A stretch of DNA of 61,047 bases, counting the filler, from Jimgerdemannia flammicorona (Eukaryota), in the NCBI GenBank assembly GCA_003990765.1. It is 2 parts of 2 records of this genome, joined end to end, with 100 filler letters (N's around TTAATTAATTAA, not from the genome) between each part and the next. Parts side by side here need not be neighbours in the genome. Positions count along the whole stretch, not along the records: positions 1 to 30,479 come from RBNJ01000442.1; positions 30,580 to 61,047 come from RBNJ01000443.1. The stretch is one strand, 5' to 3'. Made by a program: the position numbers and the translations under genes. The notes beneath the pieces are model-generated. The model searched no databases. It was not told where the DNA came from and worked only from the letters and a program-made list of their open reading frames with translations. Position 1 is the stretch's first letter. Every line of letters starts with the position of its first letter. Below are positions 8,924 through 56,851 of the stretch, piece by piece.

Positions 8924-9127
8924 TTACAGGACAATCTCCTCTCCCTTGTTAAATTGATCCTCTATCTCATATATCTCCTCACCAAGTTGCTCCTTCTCCT
9001 CCTTGCCAAGCTGCTCCTTCTTCTCCTCATCAAACCAATCTTCTTCCTTCTTACCAATTCTCAGAGATGATGTAGGAGGTGTTAGATTAATGACAAATTT
9101 GTCTTTTCTTTTGGTATTTAAAACTCT

Positions 9128-9730
9128 TTAAACTTGACTAGCATTAAGACTAGTGATTTTCTGATGCCCACAAATTCTCAAAATATCATAGACTGAATGA
9201 GCCTTGCTTATCTTCTTTTGTATAGTATGGTGGGAGATTCCTGATGATGAGATCAGCACTTCCTCACATTTGTTGTTAGTTGAAATCTGGTTGCTATCTC
9301 CTCCTAAATCCTCCCTTTTAAGCCGACAACCAAAATCATACAATACTTCAAGTAAACATTTTCCACACTTCCTCTTATAAGTATTAAAAAGATCAATATA
9401 ATTATCCTCTGGTGTCTTCTCCTGAGATATTGAGGATTTGTTTACTTTAGCAGCCTGATGTAGGAAATCACCCAAAGACTCCAGTTCTGCTTTCAGTACC
9501 TCTTGTTTGGCTTTCAGTGCCTCTTGTCTGGCTTCAGAATCCTTAGAAAGACAGATGATATTTTTTTGTTTCTTGCTACAGATAGTAACTAGTTCTTGAA
9601 CTTCTGTAGAAGAAATAAGAAATTCTATCTTTAGAGGGAAGTTACTAGCATATTCTTGAATAGTGAGAAAAGCATCTATTACTTTCTTTGAGAGAGATAT
9701 ATTGGAGGATACCACATATGTTGACATCAC
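9128..9730 (-). CDS. Cargo ORF of the hAT, unknown protein (200 aa; probably extended ancestrally to 8924 with an acidic tail)
   Basis: Non-repetitive 200-codon ORF; reading past the TAA gives ...KKEEDWFDEEKKEQ... then, after a frameshift, ...GEEIYEIEDQFNKGEEIVL*; motif similarity to Ty3 ORF3s. Confidence 0.65.
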   Translation of the reverse strand: MMSTYVVSSNISLSKKVIDAFLTIQEYASNFPLKIEFLISSTEVQELVTICSKKQKNIICLSKDSEARQEALKAKQEVLKAELESLGDFLHQAAKVNKSSISQEKTPEDNYIDLFNTYKRKCGKCLLEVLYDFGCRLKREDLGGDSNQISTNNKCEEVLISSSGISHHTIQKKISKAHSVYDILRICGHQKITSLNASQV

Positions 9731-9924
9731 ATGATATCTGGTCTGCTCATAAACCTTAATTTCTCATTTTCAAAAAATTCCCACTTATTTTTCCCAGTTA
9801 CCTTTCTGAGCTAGATTACTTTGTCACATGGATGATGTCAGGTGAATGTTGGAATATTCCAGACAGTATGACATCATCTATACAACTGTAATAGTAGAAA
9901 TCACTAATGAATCATTAGTGATTG

Positions 9925-11620
9925 TGCACCTCAGATAGAGTAGAAATTATATGCTCCTTTACAATTCAATAGCTCAATAAAAACATAACTAAATTTAATA
10001 TATTTTAGCATTTCAAATTCACAATTGTTAGGTGAATCTGGCACAATAAAGATAATTAAAATATTATGTATTTTCATTGCACAGTTGTCATTTAAAGTCT
10101 CTGTATAATTTCTAAATTGATCCTAGATGGCTGGCCAGCTGGCTAGAGTAGCTTGGCCTTAAATTTACAGCCAACTGGCCAAGTGGCTTGGCCTTAAATT
10201 TACAGCCAACTGGCCAAGTGGTTTGGCCTTAAATTTACAGCCAACTGGCTAAGTGGCTCGGCCTTAAATTTACAGCCAACTGGCCAAGTGATTTGGCCTT
10301 AAATTTACAGCCAACTGGCCAAGTGGCTCAGCCTTAAATTTACAGCCAACTGGCCTAGTGACTGAGCCATCCTGGCTTGGCTTTAAATTTTCAGCCAACT
10401 AAAATATTTTTAGTAATTGTGTGCCTCAGATAGAGTAGAAATTATATGCCCCTTTACAATTTAATAGCTTGATGAAAATACAGCCAAATTTGATATATTT
10501 AAGCATTTCAGATTCACAATTGTCAGATGAATCCAGCACAATAAAGATATTTGAAATATTATATGTTTTTATTGTACAGTTGACATTTAAAGTCTCTGCA
10601 TAATTTCTAAATTAATCCTAGATGGCTGGCCAGCTGGCTAAGGTGGCTCAGCCTTAAATTTACAGCTAACTAGCTAAGTCATTTGGCCTTAAATTTACAG
10701 CCAAGTGGCTTGGCCTTAAATTTACAACCAACTGGCCAAGTTGCTTGGTCTTAAATTTAGCCTGACCAGCTAGTCAATTTATAAATTTAAGGCTGAGCCA
10801 CCCTGGCTTGGTCTTAAATTTTCAGCCAACTGGTTAAGTAATATTTATGAATCTTTTATATATAGTACACTGTACTTATATTCAACTTTTTGCTACTCCT
10901 TTTTAATATATTTAATAAATAAAATAAAAACCATAAATTGATATAAAATAATAAAAATAGTTTCACAATTTTGGCCTTAAATTAAGCACTTTTACAAACA
11001 AAAAGGCTACTCATGAGCATAGGAGTTACTTTTATAAAGCCAATGAATTATTAGTAATTGTATATCTCAGATAAAGTAGAAATTATATACCCCTTTATAA
11101 TTTAATAGCTCAATGAAAACATAATCAAATTCAATATATTTTAGTATTTTGGATTTACAATTCTCAGGTGAATCTGGCACAATAATAATAATTGAAATAT
11201 TATATATTTTCATTGTGCAGTTGATATTTAAAGTCTCTGTATAATTTCTAAATTGATCCCAGATGGCCAGCTGGCTAGGGTAGCTTAGCCTTAAATTTAC
11301 AGCCAACTGGTCAAGTAGCTTGGCCTTAAATTTACAGCCAACTGGTCAAGTGACTCAGCCTTAAATTTAGCCTGACCAGCTAGCTAATTTTCAATCAGTA
11401 TTTACGAACCTTTTAGAAATCAAAACAGCCAAATAAGGTCTGGCCACTTGGCCAACTAGCCAATCCATAAATTTAAGGCTGAGTCTTAAATTAGTAACTA
11501 CTTCACTTTATAGAAGTATTTCTTCACAGCTATAGTGGCTAGGCCTTATAATTATTTAATTGAAAATTCTTTTATAACTAAGTGGCTGGGCTTCACAGCC
11601 ATAGTAGCTAAGCCTTAAAT
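9925..11620 (+). repeat. Three tandem internal copies of the hAT end module with 35-bp repeats (GGCCTTAAATTTACAGCCAACTGGCCAAGTGGCTT)
   Basis: Same module as in the arms, with TIR-like GATCCYAGATGGC at ~10119, ~10615, ~11255; putative transposase-binding subterminal repeats (inference). Confidence 0.85.
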
Positions 11621-12022
11621 TAGTATACTCTATCATTATTTGTATATATATATATATATACTAACAAAAAATTCACTATAAATACTCTGCTCTCTAAAGT
11701 AAAATAAATCTTAGTTCCTAACCACAATTCTCAATAATCTTACAAATACACTTCAACTGAGCTGATCTGCTTAATATAACACTCTCACAAGTCACCCACC
11801 TACAAGAAGCTACTTTTCACTCAAAATCTGCTTCTACAATTATAAGATAATCAACCCATTGATTTATCTCATAGTGCTTCTAAACAATTTACAGTTCAAA
11901 TAAAAGCAATAAGTAATATAAGACCACCGAACTTAGCAGTTCACTGGCAGTTCAATAAGACTTTAATAGAACTTAATAACTTTAGAAATATCTTTTAATA
12001 AATCAATTGCTTGATCTCAAAA

Positions 12023-13869
12023 ATGGAGTCTAATATTGAAGAAACTATTTCTGCTTTAGCTATATTTAGTCAAAAAGATACTTCAAGCTCTTTTGCTTTA
12101 GTTTCTTCTAAACAAAAGTCAAAGTTTTGGGATTATTTTACCCTTAACAATGACAAAAAATATAGCTGTAATTACTGTTCTACAGTATTCAGCTCTGGTT
12201 CAAATCTTAGTACACTGAAGCACCATCTTACTTATAAACATTCTGATAAGATAGAGGCAGTATCTTCTGCTAATAGCTCTGTAGTATTACAATCATTTGA
12301 TGCTCAAGATACTACCAAGAAATTCATCAAATGGATTGTTTGTGATTTGCAACCCTTTACAACAGCTGAGAGACCTGAGTTTCTTGACTTTGTAAAGAGT
12401 TTTAACCAGCCATATGCACTGCCCTCTGCAGATCATACCAAAACTCTTATTATGTATCAATTTGTGACAAATAAAATAGCTATTAGTGAAATACTTCAGA
12501 ATATTTCTGGATTATTATCTTTAACAGCTGATATTTGATCATCTTGTATACAAGACAGTTATCTTGGTATAACAGTATATTTTATTGATGCTAATTGGAA
12601 AATGCAACATCTTACTTTAGATATTTTACCATTTGGCAATTCTCATTCTGGTGATGCAATTAAAGAAGCCATAGAGAGTATTTTGGATGATTTTGGAATT
12701 ACAACAAAGCTTCTTGCTTTGGTTACAGATAATGCAACCAATATGACAAAGCTTTTGGACTTTTAAAGAATGAAATAGAGAGAAAGTATAAGCACCAGAT
12801 ATATCATATTAGATGTTCTGGTCATATACTTCATTTAGTTGTTCAAGAAGGCTATAAGATTAATAGCAATTTTCCTGATCAACCTCTCAATAAACTTCAC
12901 CAATGTATTTTTACAATACATAGAAGTCCAAAGCTTATACAAGAACTTCAGAAGCTTTGTGAATATTTAGAAGAAAAGTTTTATAAACTAGCTATTGATA
13001 TAATCACATGCTGGACTTCTATCTATCATATGGTAGATATTGCACTTGGGCAGTGCAAAGCTCTTGATATGCTTATTGCTAATGCTGAGCATGGATCTAT
13101 TTTGAAAGAGAATTCTTTAACAGATAAAGATTGGGAAGAGATCAGTAGAGATTACAATCAATTGAAGATGTTTTTTAAAGCTTCTGAAATTCTGATTGCT
13201 GAAAATTATCCTACTCTCAATCTTGTACATAGTATATATGTATGTCTTATCAATAAGTTAAATACTCAATCAACAGATCAGAGTAAAAATATGGCTGAGA
13301 AACTTCACAATTACTGGATGAAACTTCCTATTGAATCCAGTTTAGCTACTATTCTTGATCCTCATATAAAGATTAATTCTAATCTTTATTAGAAAAATAT
13401 CAGAAAAACTGATATTGTTAAGAATCAGAAAGCATATTTCAATCTTCTTAAAAAACATGCAAAAATCTACACTGAGTCTATTCCTAGACAAGTTGAAATA
13501 CTACTTTCTAAGAAGACTACATTTGAAGAATTCTTAGATCTAACAGAAGAAGATCTCAAGTCTACTTCTGAATTAGTTGATGCTATCAATATAGATCAAG
13601 AGATAAAACTCTACTTTGATATACCAATTGCTGATCAAAGAGTAAAGCCATTAGACTGGTGGAAAAGTCATGAAAAAGAGTTTCCAACTCTAGCAGCTAT
13701 GGCAAGAGATTGGTTAGCAATTACAGCATTAAGTGTTCCTTATGAATCACTTTTTTCAATTGCAGGAAATACTATTACTGCAAATCGAAATAGACTATAT
13801 CCAGAAACTGCAAGAGCACTTTTATGTTTAAAATTATAGTGGAACTTTGATAAAAATTTGAATAATTAA
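12023..13869 (+). pseudogene. hAT transposase (BED zinc finger, DDE core, hAT dimerisation domain), disrupted
   Basis: FWDYF..CNYC..LKHHLTYKH; SLTADI*SS; VTDNATNM; IRCSGHILHLVVQ; YPTL; PLDWWK..EFPTLAAMARDWLAI..SVPYESLFSIAG..RNRL; stops and a frameshift. Confidence 0.95.
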
Positions 13870-13890
13870 ATAAATTGGCTTTTGTACTTA

Positions 13891-15302
13891 TATATATACT
13901 TTAGTATTTTTTATTTTATAATAAATATCAAAGAATAATTATAGCTTTAGTCACTTAGTTATAACAGTGACCAGATACTTGTTTTAACTTAACTACTCCA
14001 AATAGGCTTGGACTGCTTTTCAGGTGGTTTGGATAGCTTGATTTGGTGGCAAACCAAATCCGAATTTCTCTATACTGACTGATTTCCTTGTTATAGAAAG
14101 AGGCAGTGTGAAATTTCCAAGAAATAGAGCTATCCTCTAGAAAATTATCCTGATCTCTGTTTTTTAAAATATCTCTTGGTTGTGGAGATATTTGAACTTG
14201 AAGTTTTGATCTGAGTTTTGGGAGAACTTGAATAATTTATCAATAGATTGAGGAATGGTCTTCAGCTTTGGATAGATTGTAGCTGAGGTCTCTGGAGATT
14301 TTTGGGATGTATTTGCTCTCGGGGATTCTCGGTGGTTCTCCAGATATAGGCTAGTTTCTCACAGTATCATATTTTGAGGTATCTCCTTGACGTTTTGGTA
14401 TATATCTCCACAGTAAGGAGTCATAATCTCATTAATCTTGGTGAGAATGTTTTCAAGGGTCTTGGCAAGCTCTGTTCAAAAGGGGAGATCTATAGGATTC
14501 GAACTGAGCTCGAACAATTCGATCAAAGTGTGGGAACCGGTCTTTGGTTTTGACTTATTTTACTGAGATACCGAATTTGGGTCAATTGGGACTCTCAGTA
14601 AAATCAAGTCAAAACCAAAGACCAGTTCTCACACTTTGCTCAAATCATTCGAGCTCAGTTCGAATCCCATGGATCTCCCCTTTTAGACAGAGCTTGCCAA
14701 GAACCTTGAAAACATTCTCACTGAGAATAATAAGATTACAACCCCTCACTGTGGAGATATACACCAAAATTTCAAGAAGATATCTCAAAATATGATACCA
14801 TGAGAAACTAGCCCATATCTGGAGAACCACCAAGGATCCCCGAGAGCAAACACAACCCAAAAATCTCCAGAGACCTCAGCTACAATCTATCCAAAGCTGA
14901 AGACTATTCCTCAATCCATTGACAAGTTATTCAAGTTCTTCCAAAACTCAGATCAAACTTCAAGTCCAAATATCTCCACAACCAAGAGATATTTTAAGAA
15001 ACAGAGATCAGGATAATTTTCTAGTAATTTGAGGCAATCTCTATGCCAAGTTTCAAAAGGATAGCTCTATTTCTTAGAAATTTCATACTGCCTCTTTCTA
15101 TAATAAGGAAATCAGTCAGTATAGAGAAATCTGGATTTGGTTTGCCACCAAATCAAGCTGTCCAAGCCACCCGAAAAGCAGCCAAGCCTATCTGGAGTGG
15201 TTAAGTTAAAACAAGTATCTGGTTACTTTTATAACTAAGTGACTAAAGTTATAATTATCCTTTGATATTTATTATAAAATAAAAAATACTAAAATATATA
15301 TA
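13891..15302. repeat. Long hairpin/foldback insert (~680-710-bp arms, 24-bp loop 14569-14592)
   Basis: 13891-14568 is the reverse complement of 14593-15302 except a ~33-bp indel near 15025-15057; TA-rich ends; MITE-like. Confidence 0.9.
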
Positions 15303-15874
15303 ATTAATTTTATTATTATTTATATAGAATTACATTTACCTATAGTTTCTTTTTTAAATCTAATTATTGTATCAAAAAGTTTTTGTTTTTTTTTTGATAT
15401 CTTATAACTTTTTAGATGATGTTTTTGTTTAGCTAATTTTGTCATTTTTATACTAAAAATAATGTAAAGTTTAAGTGAGGCATTAGAAGGTGAGGTGTAC
15501 TAAAATGGGTGTCAGAAAAGAGCATCAGTGTGAGCTGAAATGAGTGACAAGCGATAAGGCTTTGGAATGAGTGACGAGTGATAAGGCTTTGGAATGAGCG
15601 ATGAGGCTTTGAAATGAGTGATGAGCCACAAGGCAAGGCTCCCCTTCCCTCTCCAGCAAAAGAAATTCTGAACCTAGAGCAAGGAAGCTGTCATATGTGG
15701 GGCATTGGAAGGCAAGGTGTACTAAAATGGGTGTTGGAAAATAGCATTGATATGAGCTGAAATGAGGGATGAGTGATGAGGCTTTGGAATGAGCAATAAG
15801 TGACGAGAGGAAAATGAGTAGTGGAAAAAGAGCATCAGAGTAATTAGTAAACTCTGGAAGTCACATATATATAT

Positions 15875-18800
15875 ATATGTGGCGAAATTTTTCAAAAGGT
15901 ACCTTATGGTGATTTATTTATGTATTCATCATTGATGGTTCTGCCTCCATCGATGGTTCTGCCTCCATTGACTTCATTGATGGTTCTGCCTCCATCAACT
16001 CCATCATCAATGGTTCTACCTCCATCGTTAATGGTTCTGTCCATTGACAGTTCTGCCTCCATCAATGGTTCTGCCTCCATTGATGGTTTTGCCTCCATCG
16101 ATGGCCCTGCCTCCATCGACAGTTCTGCCTTCATCAACGGTTCTGCCTCCATCGACTCCATCGACAGTTCTGCCCCCATAGCCTCCATCAACTGTTCTGC
16201 CTCCATCATCAGCGGTTCTGCTTCCATTGACTCCATCATCCATCATTGATGATTCTGCCTCCATCAACAGTTCTGCCTCCATTGATGGTTTGACTCCATT
16301 GACAGTTCTGCCCCCATAGCCTCCATCGACTATTCTGCCTCTATCGTCAATAGTTCTGCCTCCATTAACTCCATTGACAGTTCTGCCTCCATTGATGGTT
16401 CTGCCTTCATTGACTCTATTGACAGTTCTGCCCTCATAGCCTCCATTGACTGTTCTGCCTCTATCATCAATGGTTCAGCATTTGTTGACTCTATCATCCA
16501 TCGTTGACGGTTCTGCCTCCATCAACGGTTCTGCCTCCATTAACTCCATCGTCAAGAGTTCTGCCTCTATCATCGATGGTTCTGTCCATTGACAGTTCTG
16601 TCTCTATTGATGGTTCTACCTCCATCGATGGTTCTGCCTCCATCAATGGTTCTGCCTCCATCGACTGTTCTGCCTCCATTGCCAGCAGTTCTGCCTCTAT
16701 TGACTCCATTGTCAACAGTTCTGCCTCCATCAATGATCCATTGATGGTTCGACTCCATTGACAGTTCTGCCTCCATAGCCTCCATCAACTGTTCTGCCTC
16801 CATCATCAACAGTTCTGCCTCCATTGACTCCATCGACAGTTCTGCCTCCATCAATGGTTCTGCCTCTATTGATGGTTCAGCCTCCATCAACTCCATCGAC
16901 AGTTCTGCCCCCATAGCCTCCATCAACTGTTCTGCCCCCATAGCCTCCATCAACTGTTCTGCCCCCATAGCCTCCATCAACTGTTCTGTCTCCATCGACT
17001 GTTCTGCCCCCATAGCCTCCATCAACTGTTCTGTCTCCATCGACTGTTCTGCCTCCATCATCAACAGTTCTGCCTCCATTGACTCTATCATCTATCGTCG
17101 ATAGTTCTGCCTCCATTGACAGTTCTACCTCCATCGACTCCATTGTTAACAGTTCTGCCTCCATCATTAATGGTTCTGTCCATTGACAGTTCTGTCTCCA
17201 TCAATGGTTCTACCTCCATCGATGGTTCTGCCTCTATCGATGGCTCTGCCTCCATTGACGGTTCTGCCTCCATCGACTGTTCTGCCTCCATTGTCAGTAG
17301 TTCTGCCTCCATTGATTCCATTGTCCATCATCGACAGTTCTGCCTCCATCGATGGTTCTGCCTCTATTGATGGTTCTGCCTCCATTGACTCCATCGACAG
17401 TTCTGCCCCCATAGTCTCCATCAACTGTTCTGCCTCCATCATCAACAGTTCTGCCTCCATAGACTCCATCATCTATCATCGACGGTTCTGCCTCCATCGA
17501 TGGTTCTGCCTCCATCAACAGTTCTGCCTCCATCGACACCTCCATCAACAGTTCTGCCTCCATCGACGGTTCTGCCTCCATCAACTTCATCGATGGTTCT
17601 GCCTCCATCATTGGTTCTGCCTCCATCGATGGTTCTGCCTCCATCGATGGTTCTGCCTCCATCGATGGTTCTGCCTCCATTGATGGTTCTGCCTCCATCG
17701 ACAGTTCTGCCTCCATTAACTTCATCAATGGTTCTGCCTCCATTGACTTTATCAACAGTTCTGCCTCCATCAACTCCATCATCGATAGTTCTGCCTCCAT
17801 CATCGACAGTTCTATCCATTGACAGTTCTGCCTCCATTGACGGTTCTGCCTCCATTGATGGTTCTGCCTCCATTGACAGTTCTGCCTCCATCAACTTCAT
17901 TGATGGTTCTGCCTCCATCAACTCCATTGTTGATGGTTCTGCCTCCATCATCGATGGTTCTGTCCATTGACAGTTCTGCCTCCATCGATGGTTCTGCCTC
18001 CATCAACTTCATCGACAGTTCTGCCTCCATCAATGGTTCTGCCTTCATCAACTTCATCGACAGTTCTGCCTCCATTGACTTCATTGACAGTTCTGCCTCC
18101 ATCAACTCCATCATCAATGGTTCTGCCTCTATTGTCAACAGTTCTGTCCATTGACAGTTCTGCCTCCATCAACAGTTCTGCCTCCATTGGCAGTTCTGCC
18201 TCCATCGACAGCTCTGCCTCCATCGACAGTTCTGCCTCCATCGATAGTTCTGCCTCCATCGACTCTATCAACAGTTCTGCCCCCATAGTCTCCATCAACT
18301 GTGCTGCCTCTATCGTCAGCAGTTCTGCTTCCATTGACTTCATTGTCCATCATTGACGATTCTGCCTCTATCAATGGTTCTGCCTCCATCTACTCCATCG
18401 TCCCTCCATCAACTCTATCGACAGTTCTGCCCCCATAGCCTCCATCAACTGTTCTGCCCCCATAGCCTCCATTGACTGTTCTGCTTCCATAGCCTCTATT
18501 GACTGTTCTGTCTCCATCATCAATAGTTCTGCCTCTATTGACTCCATTGTCCATCATTGACAGTTCTGCCTCCATTGATGGTTCTGCCTCCATCAACTCC
18601 ATCGTCAACAGGTCTGCCTCTATCGACTCCATCGACAGTTCTGCCTCCATAGCCTCCATTGACTGTTCTGCCCCCAAAGCCTCCATTGACTGTTCTGCCT
18701 CCATCGTCAATGGTTCTGCCTCTATTGACTCCATTGTCCATCATTGACAGTTCTGCCTCCATCGATGCTTCTGCCTCCATTGATGGTTCTGCCTCCATCA

Positions 18801-20888
18801 ACGGTTCTGCCTCCATTGATGGTTCTGCCTCCATCGACTGTTCTGCCCCCATAGCCTCCATTGACTGTTCTGCCCCCATAGTCTCCATCAACTGTTCTGT
18901 CTTCATTATCAATGGTTCTGCCTCCATTGACTCCATCATCCATCATCGACAGTTCTGCCTCCATTGACTTCATTGTTGATGGCTCTGCCTCCAATGAGGG
19001 TTCTGCCTCTATCAATAGTTCTGCCTCCATCGACAGTTCTGCCTCCATCGACTCCATCGTCAACAATTTTGCCTCCATCAACAGTTCTGTCTCCATCAAC
19101 TCCATCATCGATGATTCTGCCTACATCAATAGTTCTGCCTCCATCAATGGTTCTGCCTCCATCGATGGTTCTGTCTCTATCAACAGTTCTGCCTCTATCA
19201 ATGGTTCTGTCTCGCAGAGAAGGTCAGCAAGAGTATGGAACTTGAGTGACTTGGCTTAATTTTAAAGCTAAATATTATTGTGATAATTGATATTATAAAC
19301 AATAATAAAAAAAACTCTCTATTTGATTAAACTCAATGATATTTTATATCAAGTTATGATTTTTTTTTTTTTATATTAAGTACAATATAAAGTTATAATC
19401 AAAAGGTTGTATAAGTACTATGCACTATATAAGCTGGCATCTTCTCTATATATTTTGATAGTATTTATAGCTTAGCTCAGATAGTTATAATTGTCAGGTA
19501 AATTTAGCACAATAAAGATAATTGAAATATTATGTATTTTTTTATTTAAAGTTCCTGCATAATTTCTAAATTGATCCCAGATGGCTGGCCAGCTGGCTAG
19601 AGTGGCTCGGTCTTAAATTTACAGCTAACTGACTAAGTGGACTCAGCCTTAAATTTACAGCCAACTGGCCAAGTGGCTCGGTCTTAAATTTATAGCTAAC
19701 TGACCAAGTGGCTCAGCCTTAAATTTAGCCTGGCCAGCTAGCCAATCTATAAATTTAAGGCCGAGCCACTCTAGCTTGGCCTTAAATTTTCAGTCAACTG
19801 GTCAAGTGACAATTATGAACCTTATAATTAAACTCATCAATAGACTCAACTGTTAATAACTCTATGAATATGCATCCGAATTAGATGTACTATAGCTTAT
19901 TGGATTCAACTTTAGTATGAGAATCTAGCACAACAAAGATAAATATATTTGGAAATATATTCACAAATATATTAATGTTTATGTGAAATGCCTATTTCAC
20001 AGATTTGCAGAGCTCTACTATAATCTGAAAATTAAGCTCGATCACCTGGCCAGCCATCTAGGATCCCTAGATATATATATATATTATAACTTGTTACAAT
20101 TTCAGCCTTAAATTAAGTACTTTCACAAAGCCAAATTAATCAAAAAGGCTACTCATGAGCCTAGGATTGTGTGCCTCAGATAGAGTAAAAATTATATGCC
20201 CCTTTACAATTTAATAGCTCAATGAAAACATAGCAAAATTTAACATATTTAAGCATTTCAGATTCACAATGTCAGGTGAATCCAGAGCAACAAAGATAAT
20301 TGAAATATTATGTATTTTCATTATGCAGTTGACATTTAAAGTCTCTGTATAATTTCTAAAGTAAGCCCAGATGGCTGGCCAGCTGGCTAGGGTGGCTTAG
20401 CCTTCAATTGCCAAGTAGTTTAGTCTTAAATTTACAGCCAACTAGCCAAGTGGTTCGGTCTTAAATTTACAGCCAATTGGCCAAGTGACTTGGCTTTAAA
20501 TTTACAAATTTAGCCTAACCAACTAGTCAATTCATAAATTTAAGGCCGAGCCACCCTGGCTTGGCCTTAAATTTTCAGCTAACTGATTGAGTGGTATTTA
20601 TAAAAATATTAATAACTCTATGAATATGCATCTGAATTGAATGTACTATAGCTTGTTGGATTTGCCTTTAGTATAAAAATCTAGTACAACAAAGATAAAT
20701 AGATTTGGAAATATATTTGCAAATTTATTGATATTTATGTAAAATGTCTATTTTACAGGTTTGCAAAGCTCTACTATAACCTGAAAATTAAGCTCAGCCA
20801 TCTGGCCAGCCAGTGGCCAGCCATGGTCAGCCATGGCTCTAGCTAGCCACAGCTGGTCAGAGTGGCTTAGTCATAGCTGAGATCCCTA
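15875..20888 (-). repeat. Right long inverted arm (~5.0 kb)
   Basis: Reverse complement of 3342-8640, starting GGCGAAATTTTTCAAAAGGTACCTTATGGTG. Confidence 0.92.
15925..19213 (-). repeat. Minisatellite array, inverted counterpart of 5349-8590
   Basis: Units ...GTTCTGCCTCCATC; same unique flanks mirrored. Confidence 0.95.
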
Positions 20889-20896
20889 ATTATTAA

Positions 20897-22484: not shown

Positions 22485-22763
22485 TATAACAATACCTTTG
22501 AAACTAATGACATCAGAAGTCAGGAGACTGCTCAGACTTTATAAGTCTCTGATTATAAATTATGACTCAACTGTGACTTACCTTCACCAGAAGATGATCT
22601 GTATCTGAACTTATTGTGACTTATAGTGATCTTAGTAGTATACTACTCCAAATCAGATGACTCTACTCTCTGGACCAAAGAAGAAGACTCTTAAGATATA
22701 AAAGAAGTATCAAAAAGGAGTATAATATATTATCCATAAATAAGAAACTTACTACAAAATAAA

Positions 22764-34118: not shown

Positions 34119-34149
34119 GAGAAATATTGTTAAAGATAAAATATCTCCT

Positions 34150-37912: not shown

Positions 37913-37949
37913 ACTTCCTCCTGAATAGATGGTCTCATCCCTGGGGCAT

Positions 37950-38411
37950 CTATTTAAACTCCCAGGCTTCAACCATCTGTATGGTCTTGTACTGTGCAAT
38001 TTGCTGTATGACTGTTTCCCAATGATGTCTCCTCACTTTCTCAAAGTTGGTGAGGGTTACTCCTCTCAGGTAGTCTATTGCTGGTTCATCTTCTCGGAAT
38101 AACTTGTGGATCCTTTTGGCAATGGTGATCTGTGAGTGGGAGAGTTGACACTCGGCAATCCAGTCCTCCTTGATCTTTGCTGGATCCTGATTGAGCACCT
38201 GCCCAAGCTTGAAGTACTCTTGGAATTCTGCCCAATATTGATAGGCTCTAAAGTGCGAGATCTGAGAGGGATGAGTCTGTACAATACTCTGAATATCTTC
38301 ATAGTATGTCTCTATGGTTGGAAGCTCGGTGGTGTGCCATTGTCTTTTGATGGCTCTTTGGGCAGCACTAGTGATCTTGAGTGCCATCAAAGTACTTTTG
38401 TTACTGGCCAT
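37950..38411 (-). CDS. ORF3 accessory protein of family B (153 aa, intact)
   Basis: Open ATG-to-stop ORF between integrase and PPT; ATG overlaps the last pol codons (TATGGCCAGTAA). Confidence 0.8.
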   Translation of the reverse strand: MASNKSTLMALKITSAAQRAIKRQWHTTELPTIETYYEDIQSIVQTHPSQISHFRAYQYWAEFQEYFKLGQVLNQDPAKIKEDWIAECQLSHSQITIAKRIHKLFREDEPAIDYLRGVTLTNFEKVRRHHWETVIQQIAQYKTIQMVEAWEFK

Positions 38412-41400: not shown

Positions 41401-43574
41401 GGTTGTCTGGGGTTCCAGTACAGTTTCTTCTACTGTAGTGATGTTCATTCTGGCTGCGTTTTCTGACTTGTATTCTGGCAAGACTGCATCAGGGTGGATC
41501 TTTCGAATCTTGACCTTGATTTCTTCTTCATCATCACTGTCCTCCAGGAGGGCTGGCAGTTTGTCATCTTCCTCCTTCTCTTCTTCCCTGATCTGTTTTT
41601 CAAGAGCTTTCTGCCTTTTTTCCTGGTAGATCTTATTGGTTCTGATGGTGTACTGGTAGCAATCGTTGACATGCTCCATACAGTACATCTTGATTCCATG
41701 AGGACAGACTCCTTGTTGGGCATAGCCTTTTGCAATCTTTTTGTACCATTCTTCTTCACTCATCCATCCAACTTTCTTCTTCTTTGAAATAGTCACCATA
41801 TAAGCTTCCTCTTGCTCACTCTCTTCTTCCTCCATATCAGACAGGACTCCTTTGTTGATATTGATGGGAATTCATATCTTCTGTCCGTGGTAGGTGATCT
41901 GCATCTTCTGAGCATTGAGATCAATTACCGCCTTGGCTTTGTGAAGCCATTGATTGCCGATGAGGATATCATAGTTAGTGGCATTGGTTACGATTACATC
42001 TACTGGGATTGTTGCTCCTCCGATCTTGATGGGAACATCTCAGATCTTTCCCAGAGGTGTGGCTCTTGTGCCATTGGCTGTGACAAATACTAGCTTAGTT
42101 GCTTCTTCCACATCCCAACCTAGGCACTCTGCTGCCTTCTTACTGAGGAGACATCCTCCTGCTCCTGTATCAATGATGGCTTCAAAGGTTCTATCTTCGA
42201 TTTGGCATGTTGCATAAGCAGAGGTTTTTCGATTATCCTCACTTTCTTCTCCTAAGTCCTCTTGAACATTATTGACCTCAGTTATCTTCCATCCTTGTTC
42301 CTTGGTTGTTTCAGTAAGTCCAAACCTCATTTGCTGTCTGAATGTTGGGATTTCTGCGAGCTGACCAAAGGTTGCATTGACCTTTTGTTGACTGAGATCC
42401 TTAAAGATATTATACTTGAAGGTCTCGGTCTTGCAAAGCTTCTTTTCTTTTTCTCCTTCACTGGCTGAAGTGGTTCCTCAGATGATATCTTGAACTGCTT
42501 GCTCCAGCTCGATATCTTGGTCCATCTCTTCAGCTTGACTTTCTGTGTCAGTTTCCATCCACTTTTCCACTGGGTTCTTCTTGGGTCTTCCTGGTGGTCT
42601 CTTGTAGGGTTCTTTGCAAGCATCCTTCTTGGTGGTCTGAGCAGGATAGGCCTCCCATTTCTCTTCATCAGATTCTCTGATTTCTTCAAAGGTGATTTTA
42701 TTAGCCTGCTCCTTGTTTTATGTGGCATTGCTTGGTTGAACCTTGTGTTTGGTTTCACTCAACATTCATAGGAGTAGTGATCTTCTTCTCCACAGCTGTA
42801 GCAGGTACCTTTCTTCTTGTCTGAGGTAGTGGCAAACTTCTGAACAGGGCGGCGATCTCTTCCCCGGATTTCCTTTACCATATCTCCCAGGTGGGCAGTC
42901 ATTTCAGCAAACCTTTTGGCAAGTTCCTCCATAGGGTCACTGTTCTTTTTCTGCTCTGTAGCTTTTGGCTGAGGTGTGTTTCGATTGAGCATTGTGGTGG
43001 GGATCACACTGGTTGCCTTGGGTGCCTTGATTCTGACTCCTGTAACTCTCTCTATTGTATGGTCTTGTGGGTGTCTGGCTATCTAGTATCGCTGAGCATA
43101 GGTGACCTTCTGTGGCAGATCCAGAATCACTGGTGGTGAGTGGATGGCCATGGCTATTTCTGGATGGACTCCTTTCATGAAGGTTACTTTGGCTAATTGA
43201 TCTCAGATAGCAGCAGCATAATCTGCAAGGATTATCTAATATCGAATCCTGGTACAGAATGTGTTTGGATCCTCACTCATTCCTTGGCATATTGTGTTGA
43301 GCTGATCCTTCAGAGCTTGCTTGATCTCATCTGTGTAATATGTATTTCAGAGCCAGGTCTTCTGTGCTGTCAGTATGGTATCGGCATCATTTCCTGCATG
43401 GGTTGTGGCTGTGAATGCTGCTCTGGCAGGGCCTTGTAGACTGAAGGGCATGAGGGCTACTTGCTGTGCTGCTGTCAGAGTCCTTACAGCAGCATACTGC
43501 TCGAAATCGTCAATGAAGATGATGATTGATTCATCTGAGATATATCCATGGAATACTGGTGGTCTCATATCCAT
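38401..43574 (-). pseudogene. Family B gag-pol, disrupted
   Basis: CYSCGEEDHYSYEC; AIIDTGAG; dUTPase GVIDSDYTGEI and RGKKGFGSTG; YVDDIIIYS; RNase H; TDRGTEF, HPQGNGQVER; WEGPY. Confidence 0.93.
41110..41520 (-). pseudogene. dUTPase domain of family B, between protease and RT
   Basis: IRKIHPDAVLP; IEGGVIDSDYTGEI; AQMLIFP; RGKKGFGSTG. Confidence 0.88.
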
Positions 43575-43688
43575 CTTGTCTGAGTATTGGGGCTCGGTTT
43601 GTATGGTTGTTCAGGGGGTGGTGGTTGTTCATTGTTCAGCTTGAAAGTGAGGGATTCATCTTAAATCACCAGCCAATGGGCACCAAGT

Positions 43689-44155
43689 TGTAATGTAGCA
43701 GACACTTACTCTTGAAAGTACGTCGGATTTCTGTATCTTGAAAACTTGACCATTCTGACTCTTGCAGAGTCTCTTGAAGTTGTAGGGGAGGGTGGGTGAG
43801 TTCAAAGTGTATCTGCCCACAGGCTTACTAGTTCCTTTACTATCTCTTTGCTTTGAACTATTTCAATCTGAGGTTTATTCACTCGAAGATGCTGGGTTAT
43901 TTATACAAGTTTGCTAGCTATGAGATGGCTACTGAGTTACATGGCTAAGTTATGAGTCATTTAGACAATGTCTAGAAATTTAGACAATGTTGAAATGCTA
44001 TACTAAATCGGGGTGTTCGATTTGGATAATGTCTAAGAATTTAGACAATGTCGAAATCGAAGACTGCTAACTATAAGGCTATACTACTTTGGGACTGGGT
44101 GCGATCAAGTGTCTATTCCCTATTTCCTTCTTCCAAATTTGGCTGTACCATCACA
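43689..44155 (-). repeat. 5' LTR, family B
   Basis: Followed on the minus strand by ACT-TGGTGCCCA PBS. Confidence 0.95.
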
Positions 44156-47100
44156 GTATATAGATAATTCCAATATCTATTCAGAAAATTTTAAAGAACA
44201 CCTACACTACCTAGAGGAATTCTTCAAACTCACCTACAAGAATCACTTGAGATTGAATGCAAAGAAATGCTACTTTGGGAAACAGAAACTTGAATTTCTT
44301 GGATTCATAGTATCAAAAGAAGGAATCCATGCAGAACCAAAGAAAACTAAGAAGATCAACAATTGGCCAGTACTCAAGACTCTAAAGGAAATACTATTAT
44401 TCCTGATGCTAGTATCCTACTATGGAAGATTTATCAAGGACTTTGCCCAAATCACTGCCCCAATCCGAATCCTTCTCAAGAAATGAGTGCTATTCAAATG
44501 GACAGAATCACAAGAAAAAGCCTTCAAAGAACTTAAGAACTTCATGACTACAGCACCAATCCTTATGTGCCCCAATCTACAGAAGCCATTCATCTTGTAT
44601 ACAGATGCTTCTAAAGATATCCTTGGAGCAGTTCTAGCCCAAGAAGGACCTGATCAACAGTACTATACAATAGCTTATACAAGCAGAGCTATCAATCAGC
44701 AGCAGATGAACTATGGTAGCACCAAACTGGAATATCTTGCAGTCATATGGGCAGTCACTCTATTTAAGTATTACTTCATCAGAAAAAGATTCATCCTGAT
44801 CACAGACCATACAGCTCTCAAATGGCTATTCAACTGCAAGAAACCTACCAGAATCCTAGCCCACTGGATCCTTATCCTTCAGGATTACAAAATCACCATC
44901 ATCTACAAAGTAGGGAAAGCTCATAACAATATTGATATACTTTCCCACCAGCCCCAATGAACCAGAAGAAAGGTGTCTCAAGGAACTACACCCTAAAGGA
45001 AGCTTCTCAGACCATCAAAGTATAAGAAGATCTCATCTGAAAAGAATATCAGAAAGTCCACCAAGGACAGGCGAATGTAGAAGAGAAGTTGTGAACAATA
45101 CACCAATATTGGCCCAATCTTAGAATACAAGTCTGGGACATACTTAAGAAATGTGACATCTGCCAGAAGTAATAAGGAAGGAAGAACTATCAAGCACCAC
45201 TGCAACCATTGCACCACCAGATAACATCTTTCAGAGATGAGGAATAGATGTAATTGGACCTCTACCAGTTACACCAAGAAGAAATAAATATATTCTTATA
45301 TTTGTGGAACATCTGACCAAGTGGCCTGAGGATTTCTCAATGGAAATCACAGATGCCCTAACCATTGTAGGTCTTCTCCATAGACTCACACTCAGATATA
45401 GACCCCCAGAAGAACTCATCTCTAACTGAGGCACAGAATTTATCAATAATATAATCACAAGTTATACCTGAATTCACAAGATCCACCTAAAATGGACCAC
45501 ATCATACCACTCTCAGACCAATAGTATGACAGAAAGAATGAACCAGACCATCAAGAAAGGACTTGCCCAAGTCAATCCTACCAATTGGGACCTCTGCTTA
45601 CCTGAGATCCTATGGGAAATTTGGAATACCCCTGCTGCCTCCACCAGACAAAAGCCATTCAAAATGATGTTTGCCAAGAAGACCAGGACTGCTGATCATG
45701 AGAATCTCAGAGATCTCCTCAAGAAGGCAGAACAGTTATATAATCAAGCCCAAGGTCAGATTATCAAAGCCCAGGAAAGACAAAAGTATTATAACCAGAA
45801 ACAGAAATATCAGGAGATCAAGATTGGAGATCAAGTACTAGTTTGGAGAAGCATGATTGAAACAAATTTTGCCACCAAATTGGAACCCAAATAGGAAGGA
45901 TCTTATCTTGTACATAATATCTGATAAACTAGCATCTATTTAAGCAGCATAGATAGATGAACCCTGAGAACACCAGTATACATCAATTACCTCAAACTAT
46001 ATCTTCCCTCTACACTATGAGCCAAAGGATTGATCAGTGCCTCCAGACATTGGTCCTCAGCTCCTTCCAGACTCTGCCAGTTCTTCTACCCCAATTTTGC
46101 CAAGCTAATGGAAACCCCATTCAGAAGATCCAAGTTTACTAAGAAAATCTCACATGGGCGAGACACCTACTTCAAGTCCACCAACTGCAGGCCTATTATG
46201 CAATTGGTGAACAATTACAGAACCTTCCAGCCTTAGAGCAGACCTACATCAGGAACACTACAAGTCTGACCAGAAGAGATACTACTGCTGCAAACAGACT
46301 ATACACTATTTATAAATGAAATGTCACAGCTCTGATACAGACACAGTTTTCTCTGAATGACATTCAAGAAATGAACCCTATTACCTATTTGAGCATCATC
46401 AATTATGTCGAAATTCTATTCTCTGAAGAAGAAGAAGAGTCTATAGAATGGAGTGACCCTAGTACAGATAATGAAGATGACAGAACAGATATAGATGTAG
46501 AAGCAGCTTATGCTTATTAGGATGATGACTAAAGAACAGTCAGGGACAGACTATCCTTCAGTGGGGGCTGATGTAACAAACCAAAATGTACCATCCGAAT
46601 TATAACTTAACCAGATGATGTGAATAATTAGCATACTTAATCAGATGATGTGGGCTCTCAGCATAACATAACTTCCAGTGTATCATATTTACTCATGCCC
46701 CCACACTTATAATTAGCCAGAATACCAGAGTCTGTTTACCTGTACAGACTCTGTACATCATATAGACTCTGTATACTGTATAGGTCCTGTATACCATACA
46801 GACTCTGTATATCTGCCATAAGTAGCAAACCTATAGTTAGCTACATAGCAATCAGATAGCAACTAACTTGTATAAATTACCCCAGAGACAAGAGTGAATA
46901 AACCTCCATCTGAATTGAAGTGCAAACCAAAGAAGCCTCTAAAGATTGAGCATTGGTCCTCTTATTCCCACTCCAGTCTACTTTCTGATATAAAGCTGAA
47001 TTTGCCACCAAGTTCAAGTGAAGAACTTTGCTGCTTTTGAAATTATTGTTATTGGTATGCTTGCCAGATAAGCCTAAAGAACCCAAGTCCCCACCACCTA

Positions 47101-47988: not shown

Positions 47989-49876
47989 TGTGATGGCAAC
48001 TTCAAAACCAGTGATGTCAGAATTCAGAAGACTGTTCAGACTTCATAAGTCACTAGTTACAAATTGTGACTCAATTGTGACTCATCTTAATTATAAGATG
48101 ATCTGTGTCTGAACCCATAATGACTCATAATAACCTCAGTATTATACTATCTCAAATCAGATAACCCTACTCTCAAAGCCAAAGAAAAGACTCTTATGAT
48201 ATAAATGAAGTAATAAGAAGAAAAGTATAAAGCATCAAATAGGAGACTTTTAAAAAAATAAAATATCTACTATCTATCAAATAGCAAGATCAAGAAGCCA
48301 TCTAGGTCTATCAGTTTAAGAACAAATATTCACTAATATCAAGAGAGCTATAAGGTTATGTATAAGAAAGACTCCAAGCCTAAGTCTCTATATAAGAAAT
48401 CTCTACAACTATACCCTCAACTACTATAAAATAGAGATAAGAATTACCATCACTACTGAGTGTTTTTGGATATAACAAGAATATGAAAAAGGTCATCAAC
48501 TCTGCCAAAAACCCTTATAAACCAGCTCTTAAGAAATTGTGGACACTACTTATATGGGCAGATATAAATAGAAATTAGTCAAAAGAGTTCATCAGATCTT
48601 TAGTAGGCTTTTTCTAATCTAGAATATATCAAAGTCTCTGATATTTAAGAACTGATAAGCTGCTATACAGACTATCTTAAATAAATGATTACAGAAGAAG
48701 TCCAATCCACTATCATAGTTAAGAGTAATGAGATTTAAGATCTTTAGAACCTATCTTAGAGAACCATCCAGACTAATTTATTTATAGTTTGATTGTACTA
48801 TTTCAAGACTCTCTCTTGAGAGTCTGTTTTTCTCTGAATTTTACAGATATTATCTACTTTGTAGATGATATCACTATTGACTGTAGACCTCAAGAGCAGA
48901 ATGACTATATATACTTTGATGATATCATCAACAATGATATCACCTCTTAAAACAACTTAGAGAATAATAATGACCCACTTATTTTGCTTAAAGACAATAT
49001 TAATAACTTCCTTTTCTTACCCTCAGAGCTCTCCACTGACTTCAGCACATTTGTAGAGGATGTAAAAAATAATTTAGCTAGACTCTCTGAAGAAAAGGAG
49101 GATGAAGATGATATAATCTCAGTTATACTAAATTTTAAGTTAAATGAGAATAGCTCTATTAGCCAAATTGAGTAAGTTAGTTAGTTGAACAAATAGTAAC
49201 TATATATTAACTAGCTCAATTTATCACAAATATAAAATTTGCCTTATTCAGTTAGGTAGTTACTTGAATTCCAAAATCATACTAATTAGTATCTTCTAAT
49301 AATTGTAAGTTACAACCAATTACTTAGTCTTATACATATATAGTCTGAAAACTATAAATATCCTCTGATATATAATAAATAAATCTTAGTCAATTGGTCA
49401 GTAATACTAACTTAAGTTCTGAAAGACAAGGAAGTTGAGTGTAAGAACTTTGGAAAAAGACTCCAAGAGCTGAGAAATTACTCTTGCCATTGTGAAACTG
49501 AAGATTAAGATCAAGATCACATATTCAAGATATAAGTCAGTTGGTTAGTAAGTCAAAAAACCAAATTTTACTAAGTAAAGAAATCACTACTATTAGAAAA
49601 CAAGACTATGGGAAGACCCAAGAATATGCTAGACTGTCAAGAAATATAAAGAATATGTGAAAATTATTGTCAAGAACTATATAAATAACTACTGAATTCT
49701 GAATGACCAATAACTTGAGATATATGAACTTCAACTCAATATGAATATAAACAAACTAAATAGTAGTATATATGAATATTGAGCTGAGATTACTGTTAAG
49801 AAACAAACAGAAGATAGTAATTCAGAGATATATTGAGCTATATAGGAGTAATAAGAGATATAAATCACATGCTATA
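47989..49876 (+). repeat. 5' LTR of Ty3 family D (~1.9 kb, contains an ORF)
   Basis: TGTGATGG...GCTATA; followed by TTTTAGGAACTTAACTGAGA, which reads as a G-to-A/C-to-T-decayed tRNA-Pro-type PBS (TGGGGGCTCG..CGGGA); homologous to the solo LTR at 22485. Confidence 0.75.
48263..49175 (+). pseudogene. ORF inside the family D LTR, second copy
   Basis: EYEKGHQL...KLVKRVHQIF...LEYIKVSDI...SEEKEDEDDII..SSISQIE*. Confidence 0.7.
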
Positions 49877-51070: not shown

Positions 51071-51073
51071 TAG

Positions 51074-54000: not shown

Positions 54001-54958
54001 GTCTGAGTGTAGGGCCTTCTTCATAAGGTTAGTCAGTGGCTCAGTAATACTAGAGAAGTTTCTGACAAAGCAGTAGTAGTAGCCAGCTTGACCAAGGAAG
54101 GATCAGAGTTTGACAGAATGAGTCATTCTTCAATTACTTCTATCTTGTTTGGGTCTACTTGAATTCCTTATATAGAGACAATGTGGCCAAGGTATTTAAC
54201 TTGTTTCTTGAAGAATTTATACTTCTTGAGCTTGACATAAAGCTTGTGTTATTATTGGATCTCCAGAACTATTCAAATGCATTTGAGGTATTCTTCTTTA
54301 ATTGCACTAAAGATCAGAATATTATCAAGATATACCAATAGGAAAATAAATTGTTAGTCCTTGAATATCTTATTTATCAGAGTCTGGAATATAGCAGGTG
54401 CATTGGTGAGACCAAATGCTAAGACGAGAAATTTGTAGAGTCCAAAGGGGGTTATAAATACAGTCTTGGGAATGTCTTCTGGCTTGATTTGAATCTGGTG
54501 GTACTCTGATATGAGATCTAACTTGGTGAAGTACTTGGTATTCTTGAGAGCATCAAAGATTTGATCAATTAAGAGTAGCAGATAGCAGTTCTTGACAGTG
54601 AGTTTGTTGAGTATATGGTAGTCTATACATATTTGCAGGGTACTATTCTTCTTCTTGACAAATAAGACTAGTAAGCCATAAGGAGATTTGCTTGGCTGAA
54701 TGGTTCCTCATGTAGATAGTTCTTCTAGTTCTTTCTTAACTGCTTCAATTTCAAGTGATAACATATGATATATGTAATTCTTATATGGTATAACTCCTGG
54801 GATCAGTTTAATTTCATAATCAACTTCTTGTATAGGTGGTAGACCAGGTAGCTTGTCTGGAAAGATATCCTTGAATTCTTCTAGCAGTAACTTAACACTT
54901 TCATTGACTGATAGACTCTTGTCTCATTTCTTGGGACAGACTATTATAATAAAGATAT
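51074..54958 (-). mobile_element. Chromovirus-type Ty3 family E 3' part (RT-RH-IN-chromodomain, PPT, 3' LTR ending at 51738; left LTR boundary approximate)
   Basis: VYLDNILIFS; YEKELLAI..LDHW; SDCDPRFTS; EYLVKWMGYP..NATWE chromodomain ~52100-52220; PPT AAGAGGGAGGGA then TGTTAT. Confidence 0.85.
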
Positions 54959-56335
54959 TGTAACATGCCGGCTCAATGGAGGCAAATTACAAGGTTGGGG
55001 GTTGATGTAGTTTGGCTTGAGCCCCCAGTTACTTTGTCAAAAAGCAACAAAATGTTCTTAGATTCCTGAGGTCCTTGGTGTTTAGTAGTACAATAGTCAA
55101 AGCTGGATGTCCGTGAGCAATTTCCTTATTGGGATGGTTCCCTGGGTATAGTGGCAATTCATGTGTCTTTTCCTTCTTGGGTCAACTGAAAATGATACAA
55201 TTTTGTGTAGCGAGGTAATTTCCAAAAGTATGCGATTTCTGGGTAATGGTCTTGGTGCAACGATCCTTATGTAGCATGACAATCTCTGCATAACGATCCT
55301 CATGTAGCATGACGATTTCCAAAAGTATGCAATTTCTGGTGGATAGCTCGATTTGGCTCACTGGGAATGTAAGGTATGGGTTCTTCTTACTGGGAATAAT
55401 AGCTCGGATGACGCGGATAATTCGAATAACTGGGAATAATGCTGGCAGTAGATAACTTGATAACTCGGGCTCACTGGGAACAACAAATAACTCAGATGGC
55501 ATGAATTGGGCTCTTCTGGGAATGTGGATAACTTAGAAATGGCGGATGATGCAGATTCTTCCTGAATTAGTGGACTTCTTGAAAATGGCAGCTTAACTGG
55601 GAATTAACTCAGATGGTGCAGATTCTTCCTGAATCAGTGGCTTCAACTGGGAATACGGCAGAAAGGGTCTCTTGGCAAAGTTATGTTAAAGACTGGCTTC
55701 ATTTGCATGACGAATCACTGCAAAGTTGCATCAGTAACTGGCTTGAGCAAGGCGGCTTTCTTGGGAAGGCAGAGAATAACTTGGAAATGGCGGCTTATTC
55801 CTTAAGCAGTGGACTACTCAAATGGTTGCAAAGTTCTTCCTTGAACTTGGTGGCAAATCAGCTTTGTATTGGAAAGTGGACCGGAGTAGAAAGGGGAAAT
55901 AAGCTCACAATCTCCTAATAGTGGCTATAGAGTTCCTCTTGAAGTGTGGTAGGCAGACTTGTCTTTTGCTTCATTTTCGGACTTTTCAGACTGAGGTTCA
56001 TTCACTCTTGTCTCTGGGGTAATTTATACAAGTTGGTTGCTATCTGGTTACTATGTGGCTAACTATAGATCTACTACTTATGGCAGGTGTACAGAGTCTG
56101 TATGGTGTACAGGACCTGTACAGTGTACAGAGTCTGGATGGTGTACAGAGTCTGTACAGGTAAACAGACTCTTTCTGGTATGTCTGGCTATTTATACAGT
56201 TTTCTGCAGCAATGGTTGCTGGTTACTATACTGTGTGTTCACATCATCTTGCCTAATTATTCACATCATCTGGTTAAGGTGTTTTGGTTCATCACATCAG
56301 CCCCCACTGAAGGGTAGTCTGTCCCAGACTATTCT

Positions 56336-56851
56336 TCAGTCATCATCCCAATAAGTATAGGCTGCTTCTGCATCTATACTTGTTCCATCATCTTCATTGT
56401 CTGTACTGGGATAACTCTATTCTATAGACTCTTCTTCTTCTTCAGGAAATAGAATTTTGACAGAGTTGATGATACTCAAATAGATAACAGGGTTCATTTC
56501 TTGAATATCATTCAGGGAGAATTGTGCCTGTGTCAGGGCTGTGACATTTCGTTTGTAAATGGTGTATAGTCTGTCTGCAGCAGTAGTGTCTCTTCTGGTC
56601 AGACCTGTGGTATTCCTGATGTAGGTCTGTTCTCGGGCTGGGAGGTTCTGCAATTGTTTACCGATTGCATAATAGGCCTGCAGTTGGTGGACTTGTAGTA
56701 GGCACTTGGCCAGGGTGAGATTTTCTTGATGTGTTTGGATCCTTTGAAGGGGGCTTCCATTGGCTTGGCCAAATTGGGGCAGAGGGACTGGTAGGGCTTG
56801 GAAGGAGCTGAGGACCAATGTCTGGAGGTGCTGATCGATCCTTTGGCTCAT
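56336..56851 (-). CDS. ORF3 accessory protein of family C (144 aa open; 171 aa if TAG is read as TGG as in the other copy)
   Basis: ATGA overlap with the pol stop at 56848-56851; acidic tail SYPSTDNEDDGTSIDAEAAYTYWDDD. Confidence 0.8.

What the first reader, a model, noticed from the sequence alone, without database searches (positions are those of the whole stretch)
8924..56851. One accessory protein family apparently shared by three LTR-retrotransposon families and a DNA transposon
Seen: similar motif spacing in hAT cargo 9128-9730 (LYDFGCRL..KAHSVYDIL..ITSL), B ORF3 37950-38411 (YFKLGQVL..IAKRIHKLF..IDYL), C ORF3 (YYAIGKQL..AADRLYTIY..SLNDI) and the D LTR ORF (EYELGYHL/EYEKGHQL..LVKRVHQIF..LEYIKVSDI). 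The hAT, C and D versions end in acidic tails. None shows an obvious signal peptide or TM helix, so they do not look like env. Inference: a mobile accessory module exchanged between unrelated TE classes, possibly a DNA/chromatin-binding anti-silencing or regulatory factor, by analogy with VANC of Arabidopsis VANDAL. Homology is judged by eye only.
Basis: partly seen in the sequence, partly recalled or inferred. Interest (0 to 1): 0.85.

Follow-up and report, generated by a model that had tools for sequence, protein, structure and literature searches.

The report
Shared retrotransposon accessory gene; lookalike cargo
Several retrotransposon families in this probably fungal genome share one undescribed accessory gene, which has been swapped between families, but the similar-looking gene in the neighbouring DNA transposon could not be shown to be related to it.

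Summary
All quoted motifs are present. The B, C and D ORFs are one family. A profile built only from 11 outside relatives scores them 35-62 bits, and 0 of 300 shuffles reach that. Two more LTR lineages in this genome (F, G) carry it. The gene lies just behind integrase (B, C) or inside the LTR (D, F, G) and is under purifying selection (dN/dS 0.10-0.18). It has been swapped: young D has B-type pol but a D/F-type gene. No library names it. The confident all-helical model matches ParB-type DNA-binding domains only weakly (Z 3.5-3.7).

The hAT ORF (H) scores no better than shuffles, so sharing between classes is not shown. H does lie inside a 17.5-kb hAT-ended unit with an 8-bp target duplication, and its relatives sit in a Crypton-like tyrosine-recombinase element.

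Most likely the LTR gene is a trans-acting regulator of its own element (inferred). This scan has already reported the LTR family on other pieces of this genome.

The parts
3342..20888 (.). 17.5-kb hAT-type composite element with TAGGGATC-type ends, an inner second pair of ends (4053, 20069) and an 8-bp target-site duplication ATTATTAA
   Evidence: inverted arms
5350..8590 (.). Purine-rich minisatellite in the left arm (inverted partner at 15924-19213)
8924..9127 (-). Continuation of the H frame behind a stop at 9128-9130; charged E/K-rich tail
   Evidence: copy L016 reads through this position
9128..9727 (-). H ORF (first ATG 9727). Low-copy cargo gene, not shown to be homologous to the LTR family; relatives (H2) lie in a Crypton-like element
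11412..13964 (+). hAT core unit shared with other copies; broken transposase 12002-13839 (zf-BED, hAT RNase-H-like, dimerisation domain)
22485..23677 (+). Decayed LTR of the old D lineage with accessory ORF remnant 22740-23222
37446..44155 (-). Ty3/Gypsy element B: LTRs 43688-44155 and 37446-37912, gag, PR, dUTPase, RT, RNase H, IN; 4-bp flanking duplication GTAT
37950..38411 (-). B ORF3, intact 153 aa; start overlaps the end of the integrase frame; followed by PPT and 3' LTR
46017..46532 (+). C ORF3, broken copy; ATG overlaps the integrase stop (ATGA); acidic tail; PPT and LTR from 46572
47991..49491 (+). Second decayed old-D LTR with frameshifted accessory ORF remnant at about 48257-48648
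56417..56851 (-). C ORF3, open to a premature stop in the acidic tail, in a C copy spanning about 55485-58708

Best explanation
B, C and D carry one family of small all-helical accessory proteins belonging to Ty3/Gypsy retrotransposons (shown). The gene always lies at the 3' end of the genomic RNA, either overlapping the integrase stop or inside U3, and it has moved between pol lineages with the LTR (shown for young D). It most likely encodes a soluble nuclear regulator: a helix-turn-helix-like core binds the element's own LTR, and an acidic tail, where present, recruits host transcription machinery to boost that element's transcription in a genome with strong CpG decay (inferred). Expression behind integrase is probably by translational coupling (inferred from the overlapping start and stop). 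The hAT cargo ORF H belongs to a separate, low-copy cargo family of DNA transposons (hAT composite and Crypton-like) that resembles the LTR family only by eye.
For: Family: 21 hits among 1.84 billion proteins, 11 of them divergent outside relatives. The outside-only profile scores B 61.8, C 49.4, D 34.8, F 47.6, G 24.9 bits, with 0 of 300 shuffles reaching any; F and G were not in the query. Position: the D ORF lies in 1548-bp LTRs flanking gag-pol; F in 2.5-kb LTRs and G in an LTR behind IN; an outside relative lies behind dUTPase-RT-RH-IN in metagenome locus L189. Selection: dN/dS 0.10-0.18 in six pairs of related copies, mostly between subfamilies. Swap: IN identity is B-youngD 70%, F-oldD 76%, youngD-oldD 38%, whereas accessory identity is youngD-oldD 49%, B-youngD 23%, F-oldD 27%. 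Trees put young D with B by IN (99/99) but with old D and F by the accessory gene (84/92, 93/97). B and young D share the PBS and PPT. Fold: pLDDT 89.5, all helical; among the top 30 structural matches the ParB-family VirB and SopB DNA-binding domains (three rows) align only over the conserved core. No TM helix; acidic tails in C, D, F, G. H: at shuffle level; YR in 4 of 6 H2 loci checked.
Against: The structural matches are at background level (Z 3.7, rmsd 5.0, 78 aligned; Z 3.5, rmsd 4.6, 88 aligned; none at Z 5 or more), and Foldseek found nothing at E 0.001 or better in PDB or BFVD. B has no acidic tail. There are no binding, expression or localisation data. The 11 outside sequences were found with a B+C+D profile, which inflates the B, C and D scores. 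The accessory tree has no starred branch, and one IN row (Dy2) is long because its stretch crosses a frameshift. For H, the profile is shallow (two subfamilies), so remote homology is not excluded.
Confidence: 0.45

Rival explanations
1. One reading: H is a remote member of the same superfamily, so one regulator module is shared by LTR retrotransposons, a hAT and a Crypton-like element.
For: Motif order is similar by eye (aromatic-x-x-G in a long helix, then A-x-x-hydrophobic-aromatic). hhalign puts the H 'KAHSVYDIL' helix on the family's conserved A-x-R-I-Y helix. The low-confidence H model has a similar run of helices. ESM Atlas lists the same three Pfam-labelled neighbours for B and H. One outside member hits H2 at E 2e-4 pairwise.
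Against: H scores -0.4 to 1.8 bits, reached by 14-135 of 300 shuffles; hhalign probability 0.5-0.8% over 17 columns. Atlas scores for H are 0.80-0.85, which the tool calls a lead only. The H fold search lists no VirB or SopB, but that model is unreliable.
Confidence: 0.25
2. The LTR-family protein is a sequence-specific anti-silencing factor that works like VANC, protecting its own element from methylation.
For: CpG observed/expected is 0.04-0.34 in the window's elements, so methylation-linked decay is strong. Each lineage has its own divergent version (15-27% identity between most), which fits family-specific action as described for VANC (PMC6719617, passages).
Against: No library match to VANC or to any chromatin domain. 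The carriers are themselves heavily mutated. No methylation data.
Confidence: 0.15
3. The protein is an RNA-binding export or packaging factor that works like CERV or Rev.
For: CERV is an LTR-retrotransposon accessory protein needed for genomic RNA export (PMC10309623, abstract). The basic conserved helix could bind RNA. One weak Atlas neighbour is a translation repressor family.
Against: No similarity found. Acidic tails and the ParB-like core hint at DNA binding. Co-transfer with the LTR fits an LTR DNA target, though it also fits a U3/R RNA target.
Confidence: 0.2
4. The ORFs are env-like or non-functional passengers.
For: ORF3 position is where env lies. Most copies carry stops.
Against: No TM segment; dN/dS 0.10-0.18; same position in an element from another organism.
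Confidence: 0.03

Closest known systems
Additional ORFs (ORF3/aORF) of LTR retrotransposons, e.g. bdelloid rotifer elements (PMC5408684, abstract read) and plant aORFs (PMC7264820, two passages read)
   Same: Extra sense ORF 3' of pol; dUTPase-bearing lineages; the same ORF type shared between diverse retroelements.
   Different: Not env, GDSL esterase or DEDDy nuclease; no Pfam, NCBIfam, PHROG or PDB match; in four of six lineages it lies inside the LTR.
Retroviral 3' regulatory genes: foamy virus Tas, MMTV sag, lentiviral nef (recalled, not from a call)
   Same: 3'-end or U3 position; Tas is a DNA-binding activator with an acidic domain.
   Different: No sequence or fold match found (BFVD, PDB); host is not a vertebrate; function here untested.
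ParB-family HTH DNA-binding domains (VirB 3vwb, SopB 3mkw)
   Same: Helical arrangement over model residues 61-153.
   Different: Z only 3.5-3.7, rmsd 4.6-5.0; no sequence match; no ParB catalytic domain.
VANC of Arabidopsis VANDAL transposons (PMC6719617, passages read)
   Same: TE-encoded accessory protein that differs between families; in the H case, tandem repeats lie within the element.
   Different: No homology detected; demethylation not tested.
Crypton tyrosine-recombinase transposons (PMC3212892, passages read), for the H2 carrier
   Same: YR gene, no TIRs, short direct repeat at the ends; some Cryptons carry an extra protein.
   Different: No GCR1_C or DUF3504 hit in the pieces scanned; carries H2, a second unknown ORF and a minisatellite.

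Membership tests
One family B+C+D | Significant profile similarity independent of the query copies | tested here: met
   Outside-only profile 35-62 bits, 0 of 300 shuffles; F and G also score
One family including H | Profile or profile-profile similarity above chance | tested here: not met
   -0.4 to 1.8 bits; hhalign probability 0.5-0.8%; H alignment is shallow
One family including H | Same fold | tested here: inconclusive
   H model pLDDT 50.8, pTM 0.29; the two models could not be superposed directly
LTR-retrotransposon aORF/ORF3 | Conserved extra ORF 3' of pol in many copies, under selection | tested here: met
env-like ORF3 | Signal peptide and TM helix | tested here: not met
   Maximum 19-aa hydropathy 0.03-1.16; no signal-peptide predictor was run
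ParB-type HTH | Significant fold or profile match | tested here: inconclusive
   Z 3.2-3.7 to VirB and SopB; no Pfam hit
VANC-type anti-silencing factor | Induces demethylation of cognate elements | not testable with these tools
   Needs expression and methylome data
VANC-type anti-silencing factor | Sequence homology to VANC | not tested
   No VANC sequence was compared directly; library scans gave no such hit
hAT element (3342-20888) | Short TIR and 8-bp target duplication | tested here: met
hAT element (3342-20888) | hAT transposase domains | tested here: met
   zf-BED, PF14372 (just under its cut-off), PF05699; gene is broken
Crypton-like element (H2 carrier) | Tyrosine recombinase | tested here: met
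   Relatives hit PF00589 above cut-off and align at 35-55% into L077-L080; the H2 carriers' own short exons gave no Pfam hit
Crypton-like element (H2 carrier) | No TIR; short terminal direct repeats | tested here: inconclusive
   No TIR found; TAATT at both inferred ends, but the two ends come from different copies

The most novel reading that the evidence does not exclude
One undescribed DNA-binding regulator superfamily is traded among all major mobile-element classes of this fungal lineage (several Ty3/Gypsy clades, a hAT composite and a Crypton-like element) and acts as an element-specific activator or anti-silencing switch.
Probability: 0.15. Interest if true: 0.8.

Novelty: new variant of a known kind. 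Interest (0 to 1): 0.5.

Why it matters
Fungal LTR retrotransposons are usually treated as gag-pol only, with non-coding LTRs. Here thousands of copies from several pol lineages carry a selected gene, often inside the LTR, and there is direct evidence that LTR and gene were swapped as a unit. If it is a self-activator, it is a testable retrotransposon counterpart of retroviral transactivators and may help explain repeat bursts in a genome with strong CpG decay. The separate H gene is a new cargo found in two kinds of DNA transposon.

Tried and rejected
Pfam, NCBIfam, PHROGs and PDB sequence searches named neither family. Foldseek against PDB and BFVD gave nothing at E 0.001 or better, and the VIA second look reached only Z 3.0. 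My recalled lead DUF3102/DUF1016_N did not appear in any Pfam scan; this is inconclusive. No H relatives were found among 3354 word-sharing candidates, in viral contigs or in metagenome contigs. No LTR-family relatives were found in viral contigs. Shallow hhalign runs were weak (B-D 39%, B-C 3%, C-D 0.2%) and were superseded by the deeper profile. Three of the 21 hits (P0015, P0016, P0028) were dropped as repeats or unrelated HTH proteins. The shuffle control failed through an option clash and was redone. An early idea that H is the 3' end of an LTR element was dropped: the other H copies show no pol in that position. The H fold search used an unreliable model and is not counted. No complex prediction was obtained, so dimer formation is open. 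Five literature searches bearing on the LTR gene (listings only) showed no description of this family; subscription papers and Repbase are not covered.
Full report
Setting. The window is a repeat-filled scaffold of two contigs (C442, C443) from a 231-Mb eukaryotic assembly. CpG is strongly depleted (observed/expected 0.20 overall, 0.04 in the hAT core). The host is probably an early-diverging fungus; the only tool hint is that the nearest Atlas clusters to H are Mucoromycota proteins.

Observation. All 11 motif strings searched lie in the ORFs named. B ORF3 is intact (153 aa from the ATG at 38411). C has one copy open to a premature stop and one broken copy. The two D copies are decayed members of an old subfamily, 43-48% identical to a younger D family with open frames of about 280-330 aa. 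First-look candidates in the genome were 2608 for B, 1661 for C, 7160 for young D and 16 for H; only up to 150 were scored per search, so these are not copy numbers.

B, C and D are one family. Pairwise and shallow profile tests were weak. A B+C+D core profile searched against 1.84 billion proteins gave 21 hits: 7 close relatives, 3 dropped as repeats or unrelated, and 11 divergent proteins. Ten of the hits were looked up and all were unnamed or 'hypothetical', from metagenomic sources. A profile built from those 11 alone scores B 61.8, C 49.4 and young D 34.8 bits; 0 of 300 shuffles reach these values and reversed sequences score under 4. The 11 were selected with a B+C+D profile, so this is partly circular. 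However, the same profile picked out two further families not in the query, F (47.6 bits) and G (24.9 bits), with 4847 and 5423 candidates. The core is an aromatic-x-hydrophobic-G motif, a variable linker, then A-x-R-I-Y-x-L-F and two more helices.

Position. In B and C the ORF follows integrase and precedes the PPT. The B start overlaps the end of the integrase frame, and in C the ATG overlaps the integrase stop. A relative in metagenome locus L189 has the same overlap behind dUTPase-RT-RH-IN (2 loci from 181 pattern matches). In young D the ORF lies in 1548-bp LTRs, upstream of the TATA-like and polyA signals. F has 2.5-kb LTRs around PR-dUTPase-RT-RH-IN, and G has the ORF in an LTR behind a much more distant pol (RT-RH 37-40%, IN 27-36% to the others). 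On the RNA, both arrangements put the gene 3' of pol.

Selection and exchange. dN/dS is 0.10-0.18 in six pairs of related copies (B, C, D, F, G), 0.27 for one close B pair, 0.40 for D vs F, and saturated in two distant B pairs. Integrase identity pairs B with young D (70%) and F with old D (76%), while the accessory gene pairs young D with old D (49%; B-young D 23%, F-old D 27%). Trees agree: IN groups young D with B (99/99), and the accessory gene groups it with old D and F (84/92, 93/97; unstarred, 99 columns). Young D shares its PBS and PPT with B, not its PBS with F. The simplest reading is that a B-type backbone acquired a D-type LTR with its gene.

Structure and function. The B model is confident (pLDDT 89.5) and all helical. 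No family library or Foldseek search names it. In the wide structural search no chain reached Z 5. The ParB-family DNA-binding domains VirB (Z 3.7, rmsd 5.0, 78 aligned) and SopB (Z 3.5, rmsd 4.6, 88 aligned) align over the conserved core, which is a lead and not a result. C, young D, F and G end in acidic tails and B does not; none has a TM segment. I infer a nuclear regulator that binds its own LTR and activates transcription. RNA export (CERV-like; PMC10309623, abstract) and anti-silencing (VANC-like; PMC6719617, passages) are the main rivals. None of these was tested.

The hAT ORF. H lies inside a 17.5-kb unit (3342-20888) with hAT-type ends and a perfect 8-bp duplication, so it is cargo here. 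It is not standard hAT cargo: of 14 other close hAT copies fetched, only C4705 carries H, and the rest share mainly 11412-13964. Two further H copies (C4738, C2247) show no hAT transposase or ends in the stretches held. H does not score against the LTR family: -0.4 to 1.8 bits, reached by 14-135 of 300 shuffles, and hhalign probability under 1%. Its model is unreliable (pLDDT 50.8). Weak hints of remote homology remain: the same helix aligns, and the Atlas lists shared neighbours. A subfamily about 30-35% identical, H2, lies in a different element. That element carries an intron-split tyrosine recombinase: better-preserved relatives hit PF00589 above cut-off and align into 4 of 6 H2 loci checked and into none of the 4 other H1 loci or the window. 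No TIR was found, which fits a Crypton-like element (PMC3212892, passages). H dN/dS is 0.29-0.69 in seven pairs and 1.65 in one close pair, so constraint is weaker than in the LTR family.

Prior knowledge. Extra ORF3 genes shared between diverse retroelements are known from bdelloid rotifers (PMC5408684, abstract) and aORFs from plants (PMC7264820, passages). Cargo shared between fungal DNA-transposon superfamilies is known for TET/JBP genes (PMC12730594, abstract). Five searches (listings only) showed no description of this family; no supplements were read. This scan has already reported the LTR family on other pieces of this genome (8 notes shown of 337 fitting); those are unchecked notes. 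Look-ups by sequence for B and H returned nothing.

Verdict. A real, undescribed, selected and exchanged accessory gene family of Ty3/Gypsy elements: a new variant of a known kind. Sharing with the DNA transposon is not shown (about 25% likely). Interest 0.5.

Noticed in passing
L079 (G000:C5741) about 2416-9647; also L077, L078, L080: Crypton-like element of about 8 kb or more with an intron-split tyrosine recombinase, a second unknown ORF on the opposite strand, H2 and a purine-rich minisatellite. Its YR exon has 57 matches among 67 candidates in the genome.
   Followed up: partly
window 3342-20888: Giant hAT composite with nested ends, 5-kb inverted arms, a 1.4-kb palindrome (13891-15302) and subterminal repeats. 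Both kinds of H-carrying element place a minisatellite beside H.
   Followed up: partly
L102 3345-5849 (G000:C8857): Solo F LTR of 2.5 kb with a 4-bp duplication, inserted in a hAT copy. Nested solo LTRs can make the LTR gene look like DNA-transposon cargo.
   Followed up: yes
window 30600-36130 (-): LINE-type element with ORF1 and RT (PF00078), GC-rich and less CpG-depleted than its neighbours.
   Followed up: no
window 40857-41871 and 59477-60430: dUTPase between PR and RT in B, C and relatives; B and C each seem to have two dUTPase-like segments.
   Followed up: no
L070 2940-3290 (young D, between IN stop and PPT): About 350 bases with no DNA similarity to B ORF3 except next to the PPT; origin unexplained.
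   Followed up: partly
window 53170-54707 (-) and 27800-28400: Decayed pol fragments of another Ty3 lineage resembling the G pol; not examined for the accessory gene.
   Followed up: no
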